64,000 nucleotides of DNA from a virus (lineage: Duplodnaviria; Caudoviricetes), in the IMG/VR virus record IMGVR_UViG_3300031949_000031, positions 312 to 64,311 of that record. One strand, written 5' to 3'. Of this stretch, positions 50,852 to 62,203 are shown one piece after another (position 1 is the stretch's first letter; every line of letters begins with the position of its first letter). Below the pieces are notes generated by a model. The model was not told the DNA's origin and made no database searches. It saw only the letters and a program-made list of their open reading frames with translations. The translations under genes and the position numbers were made by a program.

Positions 50852-52847
50852 GCAAATACCATCAAAGCACAGATTACAAGCAGGTCATTTACGACGAAGA
50901 GGGCTTGATAATATGCAGTTGCCGAGACAATAAGCGGGCGGCTGAGGTCTGCCAAATTCTGAATGCCCACGACGCATTGAAAGAGCAGGTCGAGAAGCTC
51001 AAGCGGGAGCTTCTGGAACGGGGTGGACATGGTTCGGGTTGCGCGAAAGAATCTGCGCATTCCCACGAAGAGCAGCAAACTCCTTGTACCTGCGGCTGGC
51101 AGGCCCGGCGGGAGAAGCTGGAAGAGGAACTCAAGAAAGGGGAATAACTATGGGCTACAAGACAAGAAAAGACCAAGTAGATGATTTCATTCGACGGGCC
51201 AAGTTGCCTCTCAAAACGAAAGCCGAGAAAGCCCGATTTCAAGAGGCCATGCGAGACGCTTGCATGGTCGGCGCGTGCGAAGAGCGCCATCGAAATCTCA
51301 AAATCATTTGCGAGTATATCCCCGTCCCAATGCGGACCAAAACGATAGATGAGATTACCAAGAAGTCCGTGCTTAAAGTGCTCGGCTTCGAGGATGGCGG
51401 CGATTGATGGCAAAGGAACAAGACAAATTATTCCCGTACTGGCACGAACTAATGCGATACATTTATGGCGAGCGTGACCGGACAAAAAAGCTTCAGCGAA
51501 AACTTCTCGTTGCGGCCAAACGGTTCCTGCCGGAATATACTTTCACATGGTGGGGTGGTATTCCCTTCTTCAAAGCTCCCTATGGTGATTATGTATGGCA
51601 TTTTTGCGTTTGTATGAAGCAGGAGCAAATCTGGAATTATCCTGAATTCAAGCAAGGTTATCGGTTCGGGTTACATCCTAAAGAGCCATACCGTGACGCG
51701 AATCCTTACGAGGAGCCGTCCAGGGCCGCAAGTTGGGATTATGGATATATCTGGGGTCTTTACAAAGGGAAAAGCTGCAAAGCCCAAAAAAGATTCCGAG
51801 AAGATAAAGGGCTGAAATGATGGCACGAGGACGCGCCTTTGTCTGCTGGTTGGACCATGACAGCAAGCCTAACGAGATTGCACTGCATCAGGGTGACACA
51901 GTATGGTTCCGTCTCAAAAAGCACTGGTGGAAGGCTGTATTCCGCTGTCTCAAAGGCAAGTACGTAGCCGAGACACATGGACGCAGGTTTTGTGTGTACT
52001 TTTGCTGGGATTTGAAACCGTTTATTGAAGGGCCGAAATGATGGCGACGAAAAACACAGCAACCAAACCGTGCCGACACAAAAAAGGCCTGGTCTTTATG
52101 CACGCCGATGACGTGACTTTCACGCCGGACCAGGAACCTTACGAATCCGGTAAAATCGAAAGTAGCGGCCTCGAATCCGTGTGGGCCGGTTTTGTAACGG
52201 CCTTTTACTGCAAAAAGTGTAAGCGGCTTGTGGGCATCGACGTGGACCCCTCTGATATTTCTGAAAGTGTAATCTGATGGCAACAAAAATCCCTTACGTC
52301 TTAGAGATTGAACGTCTCAGGGCCGAAATACGGGCCGTCAGAGGGATGAGTGTGTGGCAATATGAGCCAAGAAGATGAATTACGAGAGGCTTTGAAGTCC
52401 ATGTGCCGCCAGTTCGCGTTTTGGCGCGACGGTTGCGGATTGTGGACGGGCGGTCTATCTGCGTTAGAGGACGCATTTAGCGTATTGGGATGGTCTGACC
52501 CGTATCCCTGCCCTGGAGTACAGTGTGATGAGCCGGGTTGTGGTAAGCAAGGGACGTGTGGATTTCCCGCACCAAAGACAGAGGTGCATCCGAAAGGTTA
52601 TCGCCGAACGTGCAGCGAACATTATAAGTCTGAGGGCAAGCCAAACGGCTGACCATTTTGTCCGCGCGCGCAAAATGGTCCGTGTAAGGAGCAAGGAGTA
52701 TGGAGGCACTATGGCTGGATATACACCGCTGTTTAGCAGCACAGGTAAAAGGAATTTTTTGAAAATAAGCCTTGACGGGCCGCCAGCGGAAGGGCAGATT
52801 GTGAGTTATGGTGATTGAGCAAGTACATTCAACTTGACCGTGATACC

Positions 52848-52906
52848 GGCTGCCGGGAGAACACGCCGCGTGCTCGCTCCTCACCAGACCCGGCAGCCCT
52901 TTTTTG
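52848..52906 (+). terminator. Hairpin + T tract upstream of replication initiator
   Basis: GGCTGCCGGG/CCCGGCAGCC + T tract. Confidence 0.6.
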
Positions 52907-52929
52907 CTTTTGAAGCACGGAGGCTTGCT

Positions 52930-53919
52930 ATGGCAGGGTTTACGAAGCTCTTTTCAAGCATCATAACCTCAAGCATTTGGTCTGAAGATGACAAAACAAG
53001 AATCATGTGGATCACAATGCTCGCAATATCAGACGCCAATGGGCATGTTTCCGGGGCCGTTCCGGGGATGGCGGCGATAGCTCGAATGAGCCTTAAAGAG
53101 GCCGAAAAAGCCATTATTAACCTTTGCAAGGCCGATCCATATTCCCGCAGCAAAGATAAGCAAGGTACTCGGCTTATTGTGGCTGACGGCGGCTGGGACA
53201 TTGTGAATTATCGCAAATACCGAGCCACACGAGACCCTGAAATCAGACGTGAACAGAACCGAAAAGCTCAGGAAAAGTACCGAAGTAAGCAAAAAGTAAG
53301 CCAAAATAAGCCACAATCAGCCCAGGCAGAGGCAGAAGCAGAAGCAGAAGCAATAGAAGAAGAAGTAAAAGAAGAAGAAACGACAACAACACCCCCCGAT
53401 GGGCAACGGACAACGGACAATGGGGATGGGGATGGGGATGGGGAACCAGGATGTCAACACACCGTCAACGTACCGTCAACGGGGGGTCAGACTAAACTAC
53501 AAGAAGTGTCAACGTCAACATCATCTTCGCCCAAAGAAACCAAATCCCACAAAGGCAGTCCAGCCGACAGAATCCTTTCCGCTTGGCAGAAGCTCCCCCT
53601 GCCGCCCGAGAAGAAACAATTCGCCGCCGCCGACATCCTCGCCATCGAGCGGGCCATCTCGATTTTGGCCGGCGATTCTCAGGAACCCGTCCACTATGGT
53701 ATGATTTTGGAGGCCATCAAGAACTACCACCAAGCCCTTTCCCTCTCTGACAGCCAGACCTACAAGCACAAGCTTCACCCCTGGCTGATGGAGCATGTTC
53801 GCAAGTATGTCTCGTACAATTTCGATATAGATCACCACCGGGGCAGTAAATACCAGAAGACAGGCAAGACCGATACGATGGCCGAAATGGAGCGATTGAA
53901 AGCGAAAGGCGAGTTATGA
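52930..53919 (+). CDS. Phage replication initiator / replisome organiser
   Basis: FTKLFSSI..SSIW, GGWDIVNY.KYR, AEAEAEAEA linker encoded by GCAGAA repeats. Confidence 0.8.
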   Translation: MAGFTKLFSSIITSSIWSEDDKTRIMWITMLAISDANGHVSGAVPGMAAIARMSLKEAEKAIINLCKADPYSRSKDKQGTRLIVADGGWDIVNYRKYRATRDPEIRREQNRKAQEKYRSKQKVSQNKPQSAQAEAEAEAEAIEEEVKEEETTTTPPDGQRTTDNGDGDGDGEPGCQHTVNVPSTGGQTKLQEVSTSTSSSPKETKSHKGSPADRILSAWQKLPLPPEKKQFAAADILAIERAISILAGDSQEPVHYGMILEAIKNYHQALSLSDSQTYKHKLHPWLMEHVRKYVSYNFDIDHHRGSKYQKTGKTDTMAEMERLKAKGEL

Positions 53920-54344
53920 CCGATCTGCAAGCCCACGAAATCATCGATGACTGCATCAAAGCCCATTGGCCGGCCTGGGACTTCAAAGGGCGGGAGTTGG
54001 CTGTTTGGGTCGAAGAGCTCCGCAAGTTCGACTTCCACGCCGCCCGGGACGGCATAGATGCGTGCTACCGCGACTGGGACGGCAAGCAGTACCCACGCAT
54101 GAAGAGCATCTTGCGCTACATCCGCACGAGGGCCAAGAGCCGAGTCCAGGCGTCAGGCATCCGCGAACATTACAAAATTTGTCGGGCGGATGGCCGTTTG
54201 CGATGGCGACCGTTCTGGGGGTTGTCCAACGTGCCCCAGCAAGACATCGAGGAAGACGCAATGGCGAAATTGGAGCGGGCCAATATCATCGAACCCGGTC
54301 ATTATATCGTTTGGCCGACGCGAGAAGCCAATGTGCCGTTCTGA
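53916..54344 (+). CDS. Helicase loader/inhibitor-like protein
   Basis: Coupled to the initiator; W...L....F......YP pattern. Confidence 0.55.
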   Translation: MTDLQAHEIIDDCIKAHWPAWDFKGRELAVWVEELRKFDFHAARDGIDACYRDWDGKQYPRMKSILRYIRTRAKSRVQASGIREHYKICRADGRLRWRPFWGLSNVPQQDIEEDAMAKLERANIIEPGHYIVWPTREANVPF

Positions 54345-54468
54345 GATTTGTAGCACGATGAAGCCAAACGAAACTACGCACTCGCACGCGCGCGAGGGGC
54401 CCACGCAGGGCACAGGCGGACAAAACGAAATGAGACTTTTGGGACACAGTAAAAAAGGCGGTGACAAC

Positions 54469-55308
54469 ATGAGCGATATTATCCGCGTCTTTGTGAGGCG
54501 GACCAGTATGACGCCGACGGACGATCTGGTGGTCGTGGGTGAGCCGCCCCTATTCGTCTTGCCGGACTTGCCCATTCATGTATCCGTTGTCTTCAGTTGG
54601 GATATCGACCGTGCAGATGAGTTAGCTACGGTGTGGGCGGCGGTCTATGGAGTTGATCGGGTATCGCTCGGGGGGCCTGCCCTGAGCGACTTGAGACAGA
54701 CGGGCGATCCGGATGGCCCTTTCGTCCCAGGCCGCTATATCAAGGCCGGTGTGACGTTTACTTCGCGCGGCTGTGCTAAGAACTGCCCGTGGTGTTCAGT
54801 ACAAAAGCGAGAAGGCGCATTACGAGAGATCAACATCGCCCCAGGCTGGATCGTCCAAGACAACAACCTCTTGGCGTGCTCACGCGGGCACGTTGAGCGA
54901 GTCTTCGATATGCTTCGTCAGCAGAAGAAAGGGATCATCTTTTCGGGCGGATTGGACATCGACTATCTGCAACCCTGGCACATGGAGCTGCTCAAGAGTA
55001 TCAAGGTCGATGCGTTGTGGGTGGCCTGCGACTGCGAGCAAGATTTAGAGCGGCTCGATAAGGCGAAGGATCTGCTGGGCGATTTCCCCATCGAGAAGAA
55101 ACGTTGCTACGTGATGATCGGTTTCGGCGGAGAGACATTCGATGAAGCTGAGCGGAGATGTGAAGCAGTCTATGCCAAAGGATTCCTGCCCTTCGCGCAA
55201 CTTTATCGAGGTATCCACGCCGAGCCGTGGGGTCCATGCTGGCGGGCGTTGCATCGCAAGTGGTCTCGCCCGGCAGCGTACCGAGCCAGAAAGGAGTTGA
55301 TGAAGTGA
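54469..55308 (+). CDS. Radical SAM protein
   Basis: TSRGCAKNCPWC, DNNLLA, GGP. Confidence 0.8.
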   Translation: MSDIIRVFVRRTSMTPTDDLVVVGEPPLFVLPDLPIHVSVVFSWDIDRADELATVWAAVYGVDRVSLGGPALSDLRQTGDPDGPFVPGRYIKAGVTFTSRGCAKNCPWCSVQKREGALREINIAPGWIVQDNNLLACSRGHVERVFDMLRQQKKGIIFSGGLDIDYLQPWHMELLKSIKVDALWVACDCEQDLERLDKAKDLLGDFPIEKKRCYVMIGFGGETFDEAERRCEAVYAKGFLPFAQLYRGIHAEPWGPCWRALHRKWSRPAAYRARKELMK

Positions 55309-55745
55309 GAATCATAGGAATTGACCCAGGGCAATCGGGCGGAGCGGCGATGATAGGCGATGATGGTGAGGTGTTGGGCGTCGAGGTGTTCAAAAATGCC
55401 ACCGAGCACGATCTGGCCGAACTATTGCGGGAGTGGCGGGATTACGGCGAGGACAAGCCGTTCGCCTACATTGAGAGCGTTCACGCCATGCCGAAGCAGG
55501 GGGTATCGAGCACCTTCAAATTCGGCCAGCATTACGGCTCGCTGCTGATGGGCCTGGCGTGCCTTGAGATTCCCTACGAGCGAGTGGCCCCGGGGGTGTG
55601 GCAGCGGGCGATGGGTTGCCTGACGGGCGGCGAAAAGAACATCTCGAAGGCCAAGGCGCAGCAGTTGTTCCCGGCACTGAAGATCACACATGCAATCGCC
55701 GACGCACTGCTGATAGCAGAATATGGTCGGCGCATGAGAAAATGA
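55305..55745 (+). CDS. RuvC-like Holliday junction resolvase
   Basis: IIGIDPG, IESV, STFKFG, ADALLIA. Confidence 0.9.
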   Translation: MRIIGIDPGQSGGAAMIGDDGEVLGVEVFKNATEHDLAELLREWRDYGEDKPFAYIESVHAMPKQGVSSTFKFGQHYGSLLMGLACLEIPYERVAPGVWQRAMGCLTGGEKNISKAKAQQLFPALKITHAIADALLIAEYGRRMRK

Positions 55746-55774
55746 AACTCTAAATGAACGAAAGGACGTGACAC

Positions 55775-56161
55775 ATGGCAACAAAGACCAAAGAACAACC
55801 AGCAATCAAGACGACGCACGAAACCCGGACGCTCAAATGCAAACTGACGGACGAGGAAATTAGGGAGGCCTCGGACTGTTTGGCGCGGACGCTCGATGAG
55901 CTCGAAATGCTCGAAGATGAGCAGCAGAAGATCAAGAGCGACTTCAAAGCGCAGATCGAGGCCAAAGAAGCGGCGACCCGCGTGCAGAAAAACCTCGTGC
56001 GTGACAAGTACGCCCATAGGCAGGTGCGGTGCACAATGACGATGAACTACAGCACGCTCAAGGTCATCGTGGCGCGAGATGACACCGGCGAGATCATCAC
56101 TGAGAGAGCCATGAACGAGGATGAGAAGCAATTGAAGATCGACTTCGACTCGGAGGAATAG
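55775..56161 (+). CDS. Hypothetical coiled-coil protein
   Basis: Good RBS; operon packing. Confidence 0.7.
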   Translation: MATKTKEQPAIKTTHETRTLKCKLTDEEIREASDCLARTLDELEMLEDEQQKIKSDFKAQIEAKEAATRVQKNLVRDKYAHRQVRCTMTMNYSTLKVIVARDDTGEIITERAMNEDEKQLKIDFDSEE

Positions 56162-56166
56162 CATCT

Positions 56167-56403
56167 ATGCCCAAGATAAAAACAAATGTCACCAAGTGGC
56201 TGCCGGCCAAGGGCCAATGGTTCCATGTGCGCCTCAAGCGCAACAATCACCTGCATACAGCGGGGCCGTTCAAGTGCAGCGAGGCAGTCTCTTACGGCGA
56301 CTACGTGCAACAGATCGAGGCCGTGGATAGTGAGGGCGACCGCTGGCACTTTCCGCTGTCGGAGTTTCGATTCGAGTTGGCAGAAACGCAGAAAAAGACA
56401 TGA
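56167..56403 (+). CDS. Hypothetical protein
   Basis: GGAGG RBS. Confidence 0.65.
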   Translation: MPKIKTNVTKWLPAKGQWFHVRLKRNNHLHTAGPFKCSEAVSYGDYVQQIEAVDSEGDRWHFPLSEFRFELAETQKKT

Positions 56404-56444
56404 CTCGACTCGACAAGATAAGCCTTTTTTGAAAGGAGCACAAG

Positions 56445-57023
56445 ATGTATGAAATCAACGCAACGTACAAAGGTTTAGTACCGATGATGATGGACCGATT
56501 TGCCGACCCTTCCCAAACGGAGAGACCATCGAAGAAAAAGGCAAAAGGGCGCAATGAAGCGGAGATTCTCGCCAAACTGCACATGGACAAAAAAGGGGTT
56601 TTTGTTCCTTCCGACAATATCCGCATGATGCTAATTGGCAACAAGCATCGTCGCGGGGCAGCACAGATTTTAGGTTCAGACATGGAAGCGGCCAAAGGGA
56701 CGAAATATCTATCGATTTGCAAGGGGTTGATTTGGGTTTTGGGGACCGACGACCCGATGAAAGTTTATATCGAGCCTCGTCGGAAAACGTATGACGACGT
56801 GGATGAGCGGTCGTTCCTCAACGCTACAGGCTCACGTTCTATGGCGTATCGGCCTATCATCAAGTTGCCCTGGTCGGTGTCTTTCATTATCCAGGTCACG
56901 GACGACAATATCGACCAGAGCTTCGTCCGGCAGTTGTTCGACGTGGCGGGCCTGCGGTGCGGAGTCTGCGCCTACGGCCCGACGTTTGGCCGGTGCATTA
57001 TCTCGGAGTGGAAACAACGCTAA
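56445..57023 (+). CDS. Stand-alone RAMP/Cas7-like RNA-binding protein
   Basis: N-terminal strand + G..P (TYKGLVP), VFVPSDNIR (cf. IPGSSLKG), C-terminal Gly loop AGLRCGVCAYGPTFGR. Confidence 0.65.
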   Translation: MYEINATYKGLVPMMMDRFADPSQTERPSKKKAKGRNEAEILAKLHMDKKGVFVPSDNIRMMLIGNKHRRGAAQILGSDMEAAKGTKYLSICKGLIWVLGTDDPMKVYIEPRRKTYDDVDERSFLNATGSRSMAYRPIIKLPWSVSFIIQVTDDNIDQSFVRQLFDVAGLRCGVCAYGPTFGRCIISEWKQR

Positions 57024-57025
57024 TC

Positions 57026-57627
57026 GAAACGAGCAGATATGAGCTGAACAGAGCCGACCAGAGCAGAGCAGAACGCCATCGGAGCCGATGGGAACGGAAT
57101 CGATTTGAGCAGAGCAGAACCGAGCAGAGCACCAACAGAGGAAACATGAGACGAAGGGAACAGAGTGGACCCGAGACGATATGAGACGATTCGAACAGAA
57201 TCGAACGGAACGCCACTGGAGCGGACGAGATACGAGGTGAGGCGATTCGAACAGAGCCGAACAGAACACAAGGGGACGGGACCAGAAAAGACCAGAACCG
57301 AACAGAACGCTATTTGATTTGAAGGGAAGTGACCCGAAAAGACAAGATGTGATGGGAATTGACTTGACCAGAGAAGAACACAAGGAGAAAAGAAAAGATC
57401 AGAGTCGAGTTGAGCGGGAAAGAATAGAGAAAAATAGAACGCAAGAGGAATCAAGAAGAGCCGATTGGAAAGGAGGGGAGCTGAGGTGACATGAGCAGAA
57501 TAGAACGCGAATCACCAGAAGAACTGAGCAGAAGTGAGCAGAACTGAGTAGGAAAGAAGCGATCAGAACCGAACGCCAAGGGATCGGAATAGAGCGGAAA
57601 CAAAAAGACCAAAACAGAAAGGAACAC
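57026..57627 (+). repeat. GA-NNN pentamer array, 10 units, putative guide RNAs
   Basis: Parsed by hand: GA recurs every 5 nt; units end in GAACGC, GAACAC or GAGCAC. Confidence 0.9.
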
Positions 57628-57630
57628 AAG

Positions 57631-57909
57631 ATGAACATGGAAATCACAGAAGCCAGAGCAGCACAATTTGACAAACTCGAAAATCAGGCATGCGTATTGT
57701 TGCAGGAGTACCTTGAGGGCAAGCGGACGGGCGGGGACGATATTGTAACCGCCCGCTGCGTGCTCAATGTCATCCGGGGCAACCGCCAGACGACTACAGC
57801 ACGGGATGCCCTGAGATATGCGATGGTCAGCGACTTGGGCGACCCGAAGGTGCGTGAAAGATATGTGAAGGCGACCGAGCCTGAAATCAAAAAACTGCTC
57901 AAAGCATAG
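57631..57909 (+). CDS. Small protein abutting the pentamer array
   Basis: RBS AAAGGA lies inside the last array unit. Confidence 0.75.
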   Translation: MNMEITEARAAQFDKLENQACVLLQEYLEGKRTGGDDIVTARCVLNVIRGNRQTTTARDALRYAMVSDLGDPKVRERYVKATEPEIKKLLKA

Positions 57910-58038
57910 GGCCGGGCCTATCCAAGAGACAGACCGACCGCTTAGTGCCGACAGAAGGCAACGGCGGCCGTTAGCCGATGAATAGGACATGGGCGAATGG
58001 CCCTGAACAACAAGTTCAGACAGAAAGGAGAACCGAGC

Positions 58039-58230
58039 ATGGACTGGATTATTGAAAACTATGATGAGATCGTTAAGGCCATCGGGCTGATTATCGCGGC
58101 GGCCAGCATCATCGTGAGACTAACGCCTACTCAGCGCGACGATGCTTTTTGGCTGCCTGTCATAAAATTCATCGGGAAGTATATTGCTTTGAATAAATAT
58201 GGTCCTTCCAAAGATGAGCGACCTAAATAA
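58039..58230 (+). CDS. Holin-like protein
   Basis: TM segment + ASIIVRLTPT..DD motif; AAAGGAG RBS. Confidence 0.7.
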   Translation: MDWIIENYDEIVKAIGLIIAAASIIVRLTPTQRDDAFWLPVIKFIGKYIALNKYGPSKDERPK

Positions 58231-58237
58231 AATTTGG

Positions 58238-58265
58238 TTGACCATACACTAAAAGATGATATACT
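58238..58265 (+). promoter_or_regulatory. Promoter of inserted HNH gene
   Basis: TTGACC-N16-TATACT. Confidence 0.65.
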
Positions 58266-58287
58266 TACTTCAAAAAAAGGAGCAAGT

Positions 58288-58725
58288 ATGACATCAGAAT
58301 CGCGAAAAAGAGCATGGACAAAATACAACCGTTCAGAGAAAAAAAGGCGTGCGAGTAAAAAGTACTATGAAGCACACAAAGAAGCATGTCTTAGATATTC
58401 AATTGAGTGGCAAAAGAGAAATCGAGAACATGTCAGAGCATTGGAGCGAAAAAGAAATCATACTGCAAAAGGAAGGCAAATTCGCAGAGCCATAGAAAAA
58501 CGTTATTGTGAGAAAAATCGCATCAAAAGATTAGCTAAGGATGCTGTTCATAATGCGATTAGGGCAGGAAAACTCAAAAAGTTACCTTGCGTTATCTGTG
58601 GATGCAAGACTGTTGAAGCACACCATCCTGACTATACAAAACCATTAAAGGTTATGTGGGTGTGTAAAAAGGATCATAAGATTATCCACAAATACGGGAC
58701 CAACGAAGTCGAGAGGCCGAAATGA
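58288..58725 (+). CDS. HNH endonuclease (AT-rich insert)
   Basis: AIRAGKL...PCVICG....AHHPDY..PL.V.WVC..DH...H. Confidence 0.85.
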   Translation: MTSESRKRAWTKYNRSEKKRRASKKYYEAHKEACLRYSIEWQKRNREHVRALERKRNHTAKGRQIRRAIEKRYCEKNRIKRLAKDAVHNAIRAGKLKKLPCVICGCKTVEAHHPDYTKPLKVMWVCKKDHKIIHKYGTNEVERPK

Positions 58726-58873
58726 TCTGCGACAAGTGCGGAAAGCCGATGCGCGTGTATTTGGTCCGGCATAACTTCCCGTGGGAAAAGCGCAAGACAG
58801 AAAAATGGTGCTGCCGGTGTGCGGGATTGGGTGCACTTTTCGCGCGGCGAGAAGAAAAAAAGAAGGTGGTCGA

Positions 58874-59206
58874 ATGAACCTGGGCGTCTGGGCGACAATC
58901 ACAACGTTGCTTCTGAAGTTCCTATGCTTGTTCCGGGGCCGGGGCTACCGGGCCGATGTGACTATCAAGAGCGAGGCGGCTATCGAGGCCGACCGCAAGA
59001 GGCTCGACGCCTTATTCACCAAACTCAAGGAGAAACGCGATGCGATCAAGACCAAAACCAAGCAGGATTGCAAGGCTCGCAAGAACAAGCTGTATCGCTA
59101 TGCTGATGAGTCTATTCTGCCTGAGCTTCTACGGTTGCAACGCGAGTATCGAGACCTCCGACGGGACTTCGTCGCCGCAGGGGGACATCTCCCTCCAGGC
59201 TGGTGA
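58874..59206 (+). CDS. i-spanin-like protein
   Basis: N-terminal TM segment + coiled coil, downstream of holin. Confidence 0.55.
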   Translation: MNLGVWATITTLLLKFLCLFRGRGYRADVTIKSEAAIEADRKRLDALFTKLKEKRDAIKTKTKQDCKARKNKLYRYADESILPELLRLQREYRDLRRDFVAAGGHLPPGW

Positions 59207-59288
59207 AGCGTCGCCGATAGACGGGATGGTAGTTCCGTTCGAGCATTATCAACACATGCGAATCTGTGAGGCATTGTGCGATGACTGA
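59040..59288 (+). CDS. o-spanin-like lipoprotein overlapping the i-spanin
   Basis: Hydrophobic stretch ending in lipobox-like SFYGC, shifted frame. Confidence 0.55.
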   Translation: MRSRPKPSRIARLARTSCIAMLMSLFCLSFYGCNASIETSDGTSSPQGDISLQAGEASPIDGMVVPFEHYQHMRICEALCDD

Positions 59289-59464
59289 GTTGAGAGGGCC
59301 GAGACATGACTGATGATTAACTGGCTCCGAGAATGCTGGGAGCGGGTGCCGAACGGCTGGAAGATGATTCAAGCTTTCCTCATCTTTGTCTTAGCGATAA
59401 TCTATGTGGATTTTCGGTGGGGGCAAAGGAAAAACAGGAAACCCTAATTTTGAAAGGAACCAAG

Positions 59465-60004
59465 ATGAACACAAAATGGGTACAACTGATGGCCTGCGTG
59501 CTGGTGCTGTGTGGCTCAGCGTTCGCGGGCGAACCGAACGAGCCGGTCATTCCGGCGGAACAGGGCCTGACGATCTGGGGCCTGACCGAAGGCGATTCGT
59601 CGAGCACGCTCGAAGCGCGTATCGGCTTGGAACTGGAGAACAGCTTCGAGCCGGGTATCGGGGTCAAGTATTTTACGGGCGATCCTGAGTGGGGGCCTGA
59701 GCCTGACGCTGTCTCGGCGTACCTGGCCTACCACGTCCGCGAGATTGGTCTGATTACCGACGACACCCCGGACAACGCATGGGAAGAGATTCTGCACAGC
59801 CTCAAGACGCGGCCCTATGCCTTGCTGGAAGTGGCCGTTCCTGTGGACGGGGAGCAGCGAAGGCCCAAATTGAACTACGCTATCGGCACCCTGTTCGGGA
59901 ACGACCCGTCGTTCAAGACGGCTTTCGTGGTCGAGTGGATTGTGGGCGATCTGGCAGGTGAGTATGACCACGCCATCCGAATCGGCGGACGGTTCAGGTT
60001 TTGA
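59465..60004 (+). CDS. Outer-membrane beta-barrel-like protein
   Basis: Signal peptide (..GSAFA), amphipathic strands, C-terminal IRIGGRFRF. Confidence 0.65.
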   Translation: MNTKWVQLMACVLVLCGSAFAGEPNEPVIPAEQGLTIWGLTEGDSSSTLEARIGLELENSFEPGIGVKYFTGDPEWGPEPDAVSAYLAYHVREIGLITDDTPDNAWEEILHSLKTRPYALLEVAVPVDGEQRRPKLNYAIGTLFGNDPSFKTAFVVEWIVGDLAGEYDHAIRIGGRFRF

Positions 60005-60251
60005 GAAACAGATGAGTGAAGAAGAACGTATCCGGCGCAAAATCCGTCGCCGCCTCAACAAATTGTGGCTGGACGGCTATCTGAGTTGCGGTCTGAACCG
60101 TCAGCTTAGCAACATTGAAGAGGCTATGTGGCAGATATGGCCGAAACGGAAACGGGCGAGGTAAGCCTGAGTCCTCCTCCGGAGTCCCCTCACCCTGGAA
60201 TGGAGTCTGGGGCGGGGGCTGTTTTGAAACCTTTAGAGAAAGGAAATCAAA

Positions 60252-60536
60252 ATGACTATGACAGGAAACATCGGTGCAAAAGCTGAACAGCCGTATTACA
60301 GTGAAGCCCTGGAGAAACTCTCTGTTTTGGCGGACGAGATTGGCAAACAACTGGGCGAACTGGAGAATAGAATCAGTGTAGTTTCGTCCCCCGATGGGGC
60401 TGTCCCTCAGTCAGAAGCCCAAAAAGAAACACGCGGTCCTATCTCCTCGTTGGACGAAAGGCTGTCTTGTCTGGTTGGGCAATTCACTGTTCGTCGAAAC
60501 GACTTAGGCATGATTCTACGCCGGATTCAACTGTAA
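60252..60536 (+). CDS. Hypothetical coiled-coil protein
   Basis: AAAGGA RBS. Confidence 0.6.
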   Translation: MTMTGNIGAKAEQPYYSEALEKLSVLADEIGKQLGELENRISVVSSPDGAVPQSEAQKETRGPISSLDERLSCLVGQFTVRRNDLGMILRRIQL

Positions 60537-60794
60537 CTTTGAAGGGACTCCCCCGGTCCCGGGCATGGACGCTTGTGTAGAACGGGGCCGGGGATTTTGA
60601 ACTATGGCCTCATCGTACCTATGGACGGGAACGAGGTTTGTGGCAACGTGGCACTACCGCGTCGATACGTATCGTCAGGACATCGACATTGCCAAAGACC
60701 CGCAAGTGCTCGCCGAGCGAGTGGCCTATGAGGCACGCCGGCACAATGGGTTGCCGGTGGAACGCGAGAGGGTTTGGTTTGAGGATAACTGAGC

Positions 60795-61061
60795 ATGAGG
60801 ACATCGAAAGCATATTTCAATCGCTTCAAGAAAGAGTTTGTGCGATGGCAGCAGTTGCTCGGGCTGACGCAGTATCGGATTGATTTCTTCCACGAGAAAC
60901 TCGAACATAGCTATGCGCAAATTACTGTTCGACAACTTGAAAAAGCGGCTCGTGTAAGTCTCAGTACTGAAATCAGCGAGGATTCAGCGGCCGTGGATGA
61001 AGGGCCGGAATCGAGCGCTCGCCATGAGGTTCTACACCTGTTGCTCGACCGCTTATGGTAG
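60795..61061 (+). CDS. Small HExxH metallopeptidase-like protein, possibly prematurely terminated
   Basis: WQQLLGL, ARHEVLHLLL. Confidence 0.55.
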   Translation: MRTSKAYFNRFKKEFVRWQQLLGLTQYRIDFFHEKLEHSYAQITVRQLEKAARVSLSTEISEDSAAVDEGPESSARHEVLHLLLDRLW

Positions 61062-61144
61062 CTGGGAGTTTCACGGTATATCGAGGGGAACGATCTTCAG
61101 GAAGAAGTTGAAGCCATTGTGGTTCGCTTGGAAAAGGTATTGAA

Positions 61145-61513
61145 ATGATTGTGATTGTTGACGACATACGAGAGCGAGTGACTATACTCGGTTTTACCTC
61201 GACGCAATTCCTGCAACTGTCGGCGATCATTCGGCTGGCGAGGATTCGCGGCAGTGCCCAGGTGCGTCGAGTGGCGGCGGGGTTGAACCTCTTCGTGCCG
61301 CGCATCTACGACAGCGAGACCGGCATGGCGGCGGTTATGCAGTTGACGTGGGAAGACGTGTTCGGCCTCAACTATGTGATGATGTGGCTGCTGGACCTGC
61401 TGTCGCAACCGCACGAACGCCTTATCGCCGACGAGATTGTCGAGACTATCGACGCGGCGATTGAGAGCGTGATTCATTTGGACCAGCTCCGGGACAGATA
61501 CTTGCCGGGATGA
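61145..61513 (+). CDS. Hypothetical protein
   Basis: ORF in operon. Confidence 0.55.
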   Translation: MIVIVDDIRERVTILGFTSTQFLQLSAIIRLARIRGSAQVRRVAAGLNLFVPRIYDSETGMAAVMQLTWEDVFGLNYVMMWLLDLLSQPHERLIADEIVETIDAAIESVIHLDQLRDRYLPG

Positions 61514-61519
61514 ACACCT

Positions 61520-62203
61520 ATGAATCAGGAAGACTTTGAAAAGGAGTTCGTAGGCAAAATCCATTGCGCAGATTGTTTGGAGCTTATGAGGGACTGGCCC
61601 GACGGCTGCGTGGATTTAGTGCTGACCGACCCGCCGTATGGGATAGACTTTGGAAAAGCCGGAGGCTTTTGCGCGTCTCACGGTTGGGGGCCGTGGAGAG
61701 AGAATGTCGAGTGGGACATTGAGCGGCCACCAAAAGCCGCGTTTGACTTGATGTTACGTCTTGGCAAGCACCAGATCATCTGGGGCGGCAATTATTTCAC
61801 CGATTATCTTCCACGAACAATGCGATGGCTTGTTTGGGATAAGGGACAAAGAGAGTTTTCGTTGGCGGACTGTGAGTTTGCTTGGAATGATGAATGGAAA
61901 GCGTCCAGAATTTTCAATTATCCACGCGGTTGCGCTCTCAAGGATGGCAAGCAACATCCAACGCAAAAACCTTTGGCTTTAATGGAATGGTGTTTGGATT
62001 TTTACCCGGATGCTGCAGTAATTCTTGACTGCTATTCTGGCGTAGGCACAACCTGCGTCGCCGCCAAGAAGTTAGGCCGTCGGTTCATCGGGATAGACAT
62101 TTCGCCGGAGTATTGCAAGATTGCCCGCGAGCGCCTTGAGGCTTGTGATACAGGTGTGCCGGTCAAAGAGGCAAGAAAAGGACAAGGAGCGTTATTCGTC
62201 TAA
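61520..62203 (+). CDS. DNA N6-adenine/N4-cytosine methyltransferase (beta class)
   Basis: TDPPYG, HPTQKP, D.YSGVGTT. Confidence 0.93.
   Translation: MNQEDFEKEFVGKIHCADCLELMRDWPDGCVDLVLTDPPYGIDFGKAGGFCASHGWGPWRENVEWDIERPPKAAFDLMLRLGKHQIIWGGNYFTDYLPRTMRWLVWDKGQREFSLADCEFAWNDEWKASRIFNYPRGCALKDGKQHPTQKPLALMEWCLDFYPDAAVILDCYSGVGTTCVAAKKLGRRFIGIDISPEYCKIARERLEACDTGVPVKEARKGQGALFV

What the first reader, a model, noticed from the sequence alone, without database searches (positions are those of the whole stretch)
56445..57909. Candidate RNA-guided system: solo RAMP/Cas7-like gene plus a GA-NNN pentamer array (non-contiguous guide code)
SEEN: two nt after the stop codon of a 192-aa gene, a 600-nt purine-rich non-coding tract begins in which GA recurs every 5 nt and the other three bases vary, e.g. 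57316: GATTT GAAGG GAAGT GACCC GAAAA GACAA GATGT GATGG GAATT GACTT GACCA GAGAA GAACA C. About 100 pentamers (hand count) fall into 10 units. No two units share their variable positions, so this is not a slippage microsatellite. KNOWN: RAMP/Cas7 proteins have a first strand followed by a Gly/Pro, an IPxSxx(K/R) motif and a C-terminal Gly-rich loop, and they polymerise on RNA with a fixed nucleotide step. This protein shows TYKGLVP, VFVPSDNIR and AGLRCGVCAYGPTFGR. No cas1, cas3, cas5 or cas6 is present. INFERENCE: each unit is a guide RNA coated by one subunit per pentamer. GA would be the protein-bound scaffold, and the variable bases would spell a gapped target, probably in competing phages or host genes, silenced by binding. 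I recall phage 'VIPR' systems being described with GGY/NN pentamers (from memory, needs checking). A GA-anchored array would be a different scaffold code.
Basis: partly seen in the sequence, partly recalled or inferred. Interest (0 to 1): 0.97.

Follow-up and report, generated by a model that had tools for sequence, protein, structure and literature searches.

The report
Phage VIPR locus with GA-NNN guides
An uncultured 64-kb phage carries a VIPR system, the CRISPR-related RNA-guided DNA silencer first described in 2026, whose five-base guide repeats are anchored by G-A instead of the published G-G-pyrimidine; this makes it a variant of a known kind, not a new kind.

Summary
Window 57026-57627 holds 116 in-phase pentamers in 10 units (G at position 1 in 103/116, A at position 2 in 114/116, the other three positions near-random).

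The 192-aa gene is a Vipr-family RAMP. A profile of its relatives hits PDB 'SUSP1 Vipr protein' at E 2.3e-7. hhalign gives E 2.8e-15 to a Pseudomonas phage Vipr that sits beside GGC-NN repeats. The AlphaFold model (pLDDT 91) matches Csm3/Cmr4/Cas7.

Gene and array travel together. 79 of 80 metagenome relatives carry GA-pentamer runs next to the gene, none on the opposite strand. Guides turn over far faster than the gene.

The locus is therefore a VIPR system (bioRxiv 10.64898/2026.04.26.720920). It differs from the characterised type II in four ways: a GA scaffold, no structured tail, one-nucleotide 'C' punctuation, and a different 92-aa accessory gene.

No target was found, and I could not determine which variable bases are read. 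Non-canonical VIPR repeats are already in print, and this scan has noted the GA-NNN form before on other DNA (e1-6043872). Interest is moderate to low.

The parts
56397..56421 (+). Mini-run of five in-phase GA-NNN pentamers overlapping the end of the upstream 78-aa ORF, about 10 nt before the vipr ribosome-binding site
   Evidence: Upstream runs also occur in 13 of 80 metagenome relatives. A low-depth contig of run X4 carries more GA pentamers just upstream (table 7). Function is not tested.
56431..56447 (+). Ribosome-binding site and start of vipr. It is 16/17 identical to the last-unit junction before the 92-aa gene (57617-57633).
56445..57023 (+). vipr: a 192-aa Vipr-family RAMP (RRM core, thumb Arg136, G-loop C172-R183)
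   Evidence: phmmer E 1.2e-4 and profile E 2.3e-7 to PDB 36pp_D 'SUSP1 Vipr protein'. hhalign E 4.2e-10 to a Felixounavirus Vipr and E 2.8e-15 to LESphi2 P21_9. AF2 pLDDT 91.3. Foldseek top hits are Csm3/Cmr4/type VII Cas7. phrog_4652, unknown function.
57026..57076 (+). vrRNA unit 1: 10 pentamers plus a terminal C
57077..57132 (+). vrRNA unit 2: 11 pentamers (the first is CA-NNN) plus C
57133..57213 (+). vrRNA unit 3: 16 pentamers (two lack the G) plus C
57214..57269 (+). vrRNA unit 4: 11 pentamers plus C
57270..57310 (+). vrRNA unit 5: 8 pentamers plus C
57311..57381 (+). vrRNA unit 6: 14 pentamers plus C
57382..57442 (+). vrRNA unit 7: 12 pentamers plus C
57443..57508 (+). vrRNA unit 8: 13 pentamers plus C
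57509..57520 (+). Irregular 12-nt stretch between units 8 and 9; the only junction that is not 5n+1
57521..57576 (+). vrRNA unit 9: 11 pentamers plus C
57577..57627 (+). vrRNA unit 10: 10 pentamers plus C. It holds the ribosome-binding site of the next gene.
57631..57909 (+). Candidate accessory gene (vap-like): 92 aa, predicted four helices, no known family
   Evidence: A tblastn homologue lies in 70 of 94 related loci: 66 downstream on the same strand and 4 upstream. It is present in 44 of 48 loci with at least 1300 nt of downstream flank. AF2 pLDDT 85.9, all-helical. No Pfam, PHROG or PADLOC hit. No informative fold match. No detectable relation to the genes that follow vipr in phage bumzen or LESphi2.

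Best explanation
This is a VIPR (Viral Interference Programmable Repeat) system of an uncultured phage. The operon is vipr (56445-57023), an array of 10 guide units (57026-57627) and a conserved 92-aa accessory gene (57631-57909).

Shown here:
- The protein is a homologue of the solved SUSP1 Vipr and has a Cas7-like fold.
- The array has a strict 5-nt period with G-A fixed and three free positions.
- The array is co-oriented with vipr and adjacent to it in nearly every relative.
- Its units are replaced much faster than the gene changes.

Inferred from the published family mechanism:
- The + strand is transcribed with vipr.
- The transcript is cut or delimited at the C / (non-G)A junctions into 41-81-nt vrRNAs.
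- One Vipr protomer binds each pentamer. The protomers hold the G-A scaffold and expose variable bases.
- The exposed bases pair with a gapped site in double-stranded DNA of competing phages or other mobile elements and block transcription.

Each unit is polar. It has a variable 5' part and 2-4 clade-specific 3' 'handle' pentamers (here GAGCA/GAACA/GAACG types), then a C. The extra nucleotide shifts the next unit out of register, which would end each filament (inference).

My best guess is that the G corresponds to the published G2 and the A sits where the pyrimidine Y3 sits. On that reading, the two bases after GA are the read bases and the fifth is the former G1 position, now free. I put this at about 55%.
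For: Protein.
- phmmer E 1.2e-4 and family-profile E 2.3e-7 to PDB 36pp_D 'SUSP1 Vipr protein'.
- hhalign E 4.2e-10 (57 C-terminal columns) to the Vipr of Felixounavirus bumzen, and E 2.8e-15 (171 columns, full length) to Pseudomonas phage LESphi2 P21_9.
- Both comparators, plus phages Medea1 and vB_E436, have GG(Y/M)-NN arrays beside the gene on the gene's strand.
- AF2 pLDDT 91.3, pTM 0.86. Foldseek gives 69 PDB matches at E <= 1e-3, led by Csm3, Cmr4 and type VII Cas7.

Array.

Linkage of gene and array.
- 15 of 16 first loci carry a GA period-5 region by the gene. The 16th, L010, has a degenerate xA-NNN array.
- 79 of 80 metagenome loci have at least one run of 5 or more GA pentamers next to the gene. 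This holds for 73 of 74 loci with at least 200 nt downstream. There are 0 runs on the opposite strand, 380 runs near the gene and 2 far from it.
- In 515 kb of this phage and its relatives' DNA, all 88 runs of 6 or more pentamers lie in the piece that holds vipr, on its strand.

Constraint and turnover.
- Against a phage with a 99.1% identical vipr gene (L001), the array differs by whole units near vipr and by one 5-nt indel. In the shared units every substitution falls at a free position.
- Run X4 holds that same variant.
- Over 15 pairs with vipr 97-99.8% identical, 24 of 89 units are shared. Some of these comparisons are limited by short flanks.

Grammar across the family.
- 231 six-nt linkers read C (230/231), A (184/231), A (231/231), N, N, N. 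Gaps between runs are 1 mod 5 in 353 of 507 cases.

Base-contact residues, named in section 5 of 10.64898/2026.04.26.720927.
- R138 is kept as R136.
- W178 becomes Y177.
- D177 becomes A176.
- R179 becomes G178.
- H17 falls in a 2-residue gap.
- Most of the roughly 130 Vipr relatives whose G-loop could be parsed keep the Arg (motifs such as GDYR, GDWR, GSWR). The nearest relatives of this clade have Gly there.

Transcription.
- No sigma-70-like promoter or terminator-like site lies on the + strand between 56445 and 57909. This is compatible with one transcript.

Context.
- No Cas1, Cas5, Cas6 or Pfam RAMP match in the genome.
- G000 is a virus record, 100% complete by CheckV.
Against: Expression, processing, protein-RNA binding and DNA targeting are not shown for this clade.

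No target was found. Under 9 read/skip rules, the window's guides, 88 guides and 245 guides matched 0.5-0.77 Mb of this phage's and its relatives' DNA no better than column-shuffled guides.

The scaffold is not the published GGY, so the published 1-nt-skip rule may not carry over.

The register assignment is weak. Burkholderia phage vB_E436 also lacks the His and has Thr for D177, yet it keeps GG. Loss of these residues therefore does not by itself predict loss of G1.

A (98%) is better conserved than G (89%). That fits the rival register, in which A sits at the G2 position.

The array RNA has no predicted structure (z -0.89), unlike the pseudoknot tail of type II.
Confidence: 0.85

Rival explanations
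1. The same Vipr-RNA filament forms, but it acts on RNA or on its own operon rather than on foreign DNA. For example, it could autoregulate translation of vipr and the 92-aa gene through the pentamer-like leaders. Alternatively the array could be a sponge or decoy for a competitor's Vipr.
For: Five GA pentamers lie in the vipr leader (56397-56421). The start regions of vipr and of the 92-aa gene are 16/17 identical and look like a unit junction. The nearest solved folds (Csm3, Cmr4) belong to RNA-targeting complexes. Decoy and orphan vrRNAs are described for SUSP1 satellites (passages of 10.64898/2026.10.15.759431).
Against: Hypervariable unit content among near-identical phages fits guides aimed at changing outside targets, not a fixed self-regulatory site. 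The characterised family members bind double-stranded DNA (Results of 10.64898/2026.04.26.720920).
Confidence: 0.1
2. The tract acts as DNA, not RNA. It could be an iteron-like or curved-DNA array bound by a phage replication or partition protein in the replication module.
For: The locus sits among replication and recombination genes: a replication initiator, a RuvC-like resolvase and an HNH endonuclease. Period 5 is half a helical turn.
Against: Strand asymmetry is absolute: 0 runs on the opposite strand in 80 loci, always co-oriented with vipr. The free positions are hypervariable. The partner gene is an RNA-binding RAMP homologous to Vipr.
Confidence: 0.03
3. The tract is a chance or slippage-derived purine-rich low-complexity region, or a decayed coding region.
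For: Mechanical ORFs of 50-183 aa overlap the tract.
Against: GA at +5 occurs 84 times against 9.9 +/- 3.1 in shuffles. A period of 5 is incompatible with a reading frame. TRF finds no tandem repeat. The pattern recurs in 79 of 80 relatives with different free bases.
Confidence: 0.01

Closest known systems
Type II VIPR of Escherichia phage SUSP1 and the Pseudomonas fulva prophage clade (bioRxiv 10.64898/2026.04.26.720920; structures in 10.64898/2026.04.26.720927; PDB 36pp)
   Same: A lone Vipr RAMP of about 190-200 aa. 5-nt repeat arrays on the gene's strand with fixed and hypervariable positions. A phage-encoded minimal locus without cas genes. Conserved thumb Arg and G-loop ...GxxFGR. An accessory gene in the operon.
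   Different: The scaffold is G-A with three free positions, not GGY with two. D177, R179 and H17 are not conserved. Units are 41-81 nt with a pentamer-format 3' handle and no predicted structured or pseudoknot tail. The 10 units are packed head to tail with 1 extra nucleotide. The order is vipr-array-accessory rather than vrRNA-vipr-vap1-vrRNAs. The accessory protein shows no detectable relation to the gene that follows vipr in bumzen or LESphi2.
VIPR types with alternative repeats (NNNGG, YNNNG, NNNNG) and 'staggered' vrRNA arrays (Methods section 20 and the legends of figs S17-S18 of 10.64898/2026.04.26.720920)
   Same: A relaxed scaffold with only one or two fixed bases. [quoted passage not shown] Written from the base after the G, this repeat is A-NNN-G, one letter away from YNNNG.
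   Different: A purine (A, 114/116) sits where Y or N is listed. I could not see the logos or data S4 because supplements are closed. This clade may therefore already be one of the seven types. NCBI holds contigs of the clade above the paper's 20-kb cut-off (65,591 and 52,105 bases).
Non-canonical VIPR-like clusters found by entropy periodicity (GAC/NN, CAC/NN, WGT/NN, TGH/NN; 21 clusters, 6,318 sequences; bioRxiv 10.64898/2026.10.21.760802, passages and section 4.22 read)
   Same: 5-nt period arrays with a non-GGY core beside a Vipr-like fold. One named core starts with GA.
   Different: Here the third position is free (C in only 14 of 116), so the core is GA-N, not GAC. Fig. S10, which lists all cores, was not visible.
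Class 1 CRISPR backbone RAMPs (Csm3, Cmr4, type VII Cas7)
   Same: RRM core, thumb and glycine-rich loop. These are the best solved fold matches. They polymerise on guide RNA with a fixed step.
   Different: No CRISPR repeats, no other cas genes, and a 5-nt rather than 6-nt step. The protein falls below the Pfam RAMP model.

Membership tests
VIPR systems (broad sense, all types) | Vipr protein: a minimal RAMP (RRM core, thumb, G-loop) homologous to the described Vipr proteins | tested here: met
   sequence and profile; fold
VIPR systems (broad sense, all types) | Tandem 5-nt repeats with fixed scaffold bases alternating with hypervariable bases, next to vipr on its strand | tested here: met
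   Hypervariability.
VIPR systems (broad sense, all types) | Minimal, mostly viral locus without a CRISPR array or other cas genes | tested here: met
   Virus record of 64,311 bases. No Cas1, Cas5d, Cas6 or Pfam RAMP match. TRF finds no CRISPR-like repeat. Cas3 was not searched.
VIPR systems (broad sense, all types) | vrRNAs are expressed and co-purify with Vipr | not testable with these tools
   Needs small-RNA sequencing and a pull-down
VIPR systems (broad sense, all types) | Variable bases specify a gapped DNA target (published rule: two read, one skipped) | tested here: inconclusive
   9 rules were tested on 0.5-0.77 Mb of this phage's and its relatives' DNA. Real guides scored the same as shuffled guides. 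Public collections were not scanned.
VIPR systems (broad sense, all types) | An accessory (vap) gene in the operon | tested here: inconclusive
   A 92-aa gene is conserved beside the array in 44 of 48 loci with enough flank. Identity with any of vap1-6 could not be checked. It is not related to the vap1-position genes of bumzen or LESphi2.
Type II VIPR (SUSP1 / P. fulva clade) | GGY/NN repeat | tested here: not met
   GA/NNN: G 103/116, A 114/116, third position free
Type II VIPR (SUSP1 / P. fulva clade) | Invariable structured 3' tail (a pseudoknot in the SUSP1 clade) | tested here: not met
   The array folds no better than shuffles (z -0.89). The 3' handle consists of 2-4 conserved pentamers. 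No Rfam match.
Type II VIPR (SUSP1 / P. fulva clade) | Base-contact residues H17, D177, W178, R179, R138 | tested here: not met
   Only R138 is kept (as R136). W becomes Y, D becomes A, R becomes G, and H17 falls in a gap.
CRISPR-Cas class 1 effector | A CRISPR repeat-spacer array plus Cas5, Cas6 and large-subunit genes | tested here: not met

The most novel reading that the evidence does not exclude
The GA clade uses a recognition code of its own. With the G1 and Y3 pockets remodelled (D177 to A, R179 to G, His lost), three bases per repeat are free. Either all three, or a different pair than in GGY/NN systems, would be read, giving a different target spacing. The wholesale replacement of units between phages whose vipr genes are 97-99.8% identical would reflect an active way of gaining new guides. 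No acquisition mechanism is described in the parts of the VIPR papers that I read.
Probability: 0.2. Interest if true: 0.65.

Novelty: new variant of a known kind. Interest (0 to 1): 0.35.

Why it matters
VIPR is a months-old class whose mechanism has been worked out only for GGY/NN guides.

A clade with a two-base G-A anchor and three free bases is a natural experiment on how the protein pockets set the scaffold and how many bases are read. Its base-holding residues are replaced, it has no structured tail, and it has compact one-nucleotide punctuation. Its short 41-81-nt units would be convenient to reprogram if the code were solved.

The family is common in sediment and soil viromes: 118 proteins and 120 metagenome stretches. 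Its guides turn over quickly, so it is also a good data set for asking how vrRNA arrays gain new units.

It does not open a new kind of system.

Tried and rejected
Codon-register test. In 85 guides, stop triplets looked depleted only in the N3N4N5 frame on both strands (z -3.7 and -3.4). That would have meant one codon per pentamer with all three bases tracking the target. With 274 independent guides (1539 variable pentamers), the effect proved to be avoidance of TAG and CTA in other frames too, while TGA was not depleted (22 observed against 19.6 expected). I rejected it as evidence for a reading rule.

Substitutions between homologous guides of different loci. The 26 unique single changes split 10/8/8 over the three free positions, so no position stands out.

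Target search in held DNA. I tested 9 read/skip rules against the phage's own genome, 10 related phage records and 85 further loci. Arrays were masked but not, which therefore also returned each guide's own site under the rules that keep the 5-nt spacing. No other score exceeded the column-shuffled guides. The few top scores are within control range.

Scan of public collections with decoded guides. I did not do this.

Rfam: no match in 55500-58500 at E <= 1, so no hammerhead-type spacers.

RNA evidence: no RNA holder is listed among 7 runs. The laid runs are DNA contigs only.

Vipr with the 92-aa protein in complex prediction: no verdict (score 0.00 in two runs). This is no evidence either way.

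Fold of the 92-aa protein. Foldseek gives nothing at E <= 0.001. VIA-align's best Z is 7.7 to generic helical hairpins, within the background for helical models.

Bridging clades. Three viral-contig scans then found no locus.

UniProt seed. I could not confirm whether the paper's seed A0A0F9A1L0 belongs to this clade. A clade member, KKL92749.1, comes from a marine sediment metagenome, but no UniProt accession was shown.

'GA-NNN not named in print'. This rests on the paper search, on find passages, and on the sections listed in the full report. Figures and supplementary data (fig. S17, data S4, Fig. S10) were not visible and may show it.
Full report
OBSERVATION

The 192-aa ORF (56445-57023) ends in TAA. 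Two bases later, at 57026, a purine-rich tract begins and runs to 57627, four bases before the ATG of a 92-aa ORF at 57631.

Identity at lag 5 is 0.52, against 0.22-0.30 at lags 1-4. Of 115 successive GA-GA distances, 79 are exactly 5. Strict runs hold 97 GA-NNN pentamers.

Read in phase, the tract is 10 units of 8-16 pentamers, 116 in all. G sits at position 1 in 103/116 and A at position 2 in 114/116. The other three positions carry less than 0.2 bits each. Every unit is followed by a single C.

GA recurs 5 nt after GA 84 times, against 9.9 +/- 3.1 (maximum 21) in 2000 shuffles. No two units share more than two consecutive pentamers. Tandem Repeats Finder does not call the array.

THE PROTEIN

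Pfam, PADLOC and names from the sources give nothing. PHROGs gives only phrog_4652, of unknown function.

Against the sequences of PDB chains, the single protein hits 36pp_D, 'SUSP1 Vipr protein', at E 1.2e-4. A profile of 36 relatives hits the same chain at E 2.3e-7.

tblastn against deposited phages finds 122 records. Full-length matches are Pseudomonas phage LESphi2 (31% identity, E 1e-7), Medea1 and Burkholderia phage vB_E436. Felixounaviruses, the genus named on the phage bumzen record, match only over the C-terminal 59 residues.

hhalign of the family profile gives E 2.8e-15 over 171 columns to LESphi2 P21_9, and E 4.2e-10 over 57 columns to the bumzen protein.

All four comparators have arrays beside the gene on its strand. 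bumzen, LESphi2 and Medea1 have GGY-NN repeats. vB_E436 has GG(C/A)-NN.

The AlphaFold model is confident (pLDDT 91.3, pTM 0.86). Its best solved matches are Csm3, Cmr4 and type VII Cas7 subunits (E from 1.6e-5, TM 0.41-0.56). The fold library ends on 2026-04-08 and returned no Vipr chain.

The protein is therefore a Vipr-family RAMP.

LINKAGE OF GENE AND ARRAY

Of the first 16 loci (14 viral contigs and 2 MAG contigs), 15 show a GA period-5 region by the gene. The exception, L010, has a degenerate xA-NNN array.

Of 80 metagenome loci (the best 80 of 120 confirmed stretches):
- 79 have at least one run of 5 or more GA pentamers next to the gene;
- 73 of the 74 with at least 200 nt downstream have a downstream run;
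- none has a run on the opposite strand;
- 380 runs lie near the gene and 2 lie far from it.

The single miss, L086, has short degenerate runs.

In 515 kb comprising this phage, ten related phage records and five further loci, all 88 runs of 6 or more pentamers lie in the piece that holds vipr, on vipr's strand.

GRAMMAR

Each unit is polar. The 5' part is variable. The last 2-4 pentamers are conserved within a clade: here GAGCA, GAACA and GAACG types, and in other clades GACCC-GAACC-GAACG or GACCA-GACCA-GAACT.

Across the family, 231 six-nt linkers read C (230/231), A (184/231), A (231/231), N, N, N. Gaps between runs are 1 mod 5 in 353 of 507 cases and 0 mod 5 in 139.

A unit is therefore (non-G)A-NNN, then (GA-NNN)n, then C. 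The first pentamer keeps the A but avoids the G, and each unit adds one nucleotide that shifts the register.

The array RNA has no predicted structure beyond shuffles (z -0.89). It has no Rfam match. No sigma-70-like promoter or terminator-like site lies on the + strand between vipr and the 92-aa gene.

TURNOVER

A phage with a 99.1% identical vipr gene (L001/G001) has different units next to vipr, extra units there and one 5-nt indel. In the shared units the substitutions fall only at free positions. Contigs of run X4 hold the same variant.

Over 15 non-duplicate pairs with vipr 97-99.8% identical, 24 of 89 units are shared. Two pairs at 97% share none of 6-7 units. Some pairs have short flanks, which lowers the count.

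Shared units tend to lie at the end far from vipr, but there are exceptions (L077/L082), so I claim no polarity.

THE ACCESSORY GENE

A homologue of the 92-aa protein lies in 70 of 94 related loci: 66 downstream on the same strand and 4 upstream. It is present in 44 of the 48 loci with at least 1300 nt of downstream flank.

It is predicted to be four helices (pLDDT 85.9). It has no informative fold match. It shows no detectable relation to the genes that follow vipr in bumzen or LESphi2.

WHAT IS KNOWN

bioRxiv 10.64898/2026.04.26.720920. I read the Results, Methods sections 18 and 20, and passages including the legends of figs S16-S22.
- It defines VIPR as Vipr plus vrRNAs of 9-16 YNNGG repeats with a 3' tail.
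- It shows recognition of double-stranded DNA by the NN bases with one skipped target base.
- It shows silencing of competing phages and satellites.
- It describes seven types, alternative repeats (NNNGG, YNNNG, NNNNG), staggered arrays and six vap genes.

bioRxiv 10.64898/2026.04.26.720927. I read the abstract and sections 5 and 6.
- It shows one protomer per repeat.
- G1 is held by H17 and D177.
- G2 is held by R138 and W178.
- Y3 sits in a purine-excluding pocket that includes R179 of the next protomer.

bioRxiv 10.64898/2026.10.21.760802. I read passages and section 4.22. It reports 21 clusters of Vipr-linked arrays with non-canonical cores such as GAC/NN, CAC/NN, WGT/NN and TGH/NN.

bioRxiv 10.64898/2026.10.15.759431. 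I read passages only. It shows the SUSP1 system arming the phage against a satellite, and it describes orphan and decoy vrRNAs.

This scan's notes record the GA-NNN form in another genome (e1-6043872).

HOW THIS LOCUS DIFFERS

- The scaffold is G-A with three free bases.
- In the alignments, R138 is kept (R136), W178 is Tyr, D177 is Ala, R179 is Gly and H17 falls in a gap.
- Most of the best 150 Vipr relatives whose G-loop could be parsed keep the Arg. The Gly marks this clade. The clade has 11 representatives at E <= 1e-30, out of 1227 at E <= 1e-3.
- There is no structured tail.
- The array lies between vipr and the accessory gene.

WHICH BASES ARE READ

Two registers are possible.
- (a) G = G1, A = G2, and the last two bases are read.
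- (b) G = G2, A = the Y3 position, the first two free bases are read, and the fifth is the former G1 position.

In favour of (b):
- Every repeat variant named in the paper keeps the last G.
- The residues lost here are the G1 contacts and the Arg of the Y3 pocket.
- The first pentamer of a unit keeps A but drops G. That is expected if G is held by an upstream protomer, which is absent at the 5' end.

Against (b):
- vB_E436 lacks the same His and Asp yet keeps GG.
- A is better conserved than G.

I put (b) at about 55%. Neither the stop-triplet statistics nor the positions of substitutions decide between them. No target was found in the DNA I could hold.

VERDICT

The locus is a VIPR system of an uncultured phage with a non-canonical G-A scaffold. 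It is a variant of a known kind. It may already be catalogued in figures and supplementary data that I could not see.

Noticed in passing
window 56431-56447 and 57617-57633: The ribosome-binding site and start regions of vipr and of the 92-aa gene are 16/17 identical. Each reads like an array unit junction: two GA pentamers, a C, then an AA-type pentamer that holds the ATG. The cassette is thus bracketed by the same junction.
   Followed up: partly
window 57026-57160 versus L001 4577-4865: Between two phages with 99.1% identical vipr genes, the units nearest vipr are replaced or added while the far units are kept. Across 15 such pairs only 24 of 89 units are shared. How new units arise is unknown.
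   Followed up: partly
274 guides from L002-L124 and the window: TAG and its complement CTA are under-represented among the free triplets in more than one frame (for example 5 observed against 21.9 expected, and 16 against 35.1), while TGA is not.
   Followed up: partly
window 56397-56421: Five GA pentamers overlap the end of the upstream 78-aa ORF. A low-depth contig of run X4 carries further GA pentamers just upstream of this point, so some variants may have a longer upstream array.
   Followed up: no
window 52834-62203: The VIPR operon sits in the replication and recombination module: a replication initiator or DnaD-like loader, a radical SAM protein, a RuvC-like resolvase, then (after VIPR) an HNH-type endonuclease and a DNA methyltransferase.
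   Followed up: partly
L015 and L016 (genome contigs): Relatives of this phage locus are binned in MAGs labelled Sedimentisphaerales and Acholeplasmataceae. These are probably phage contigs, so they give no firm host assignment.
   Followed up: no
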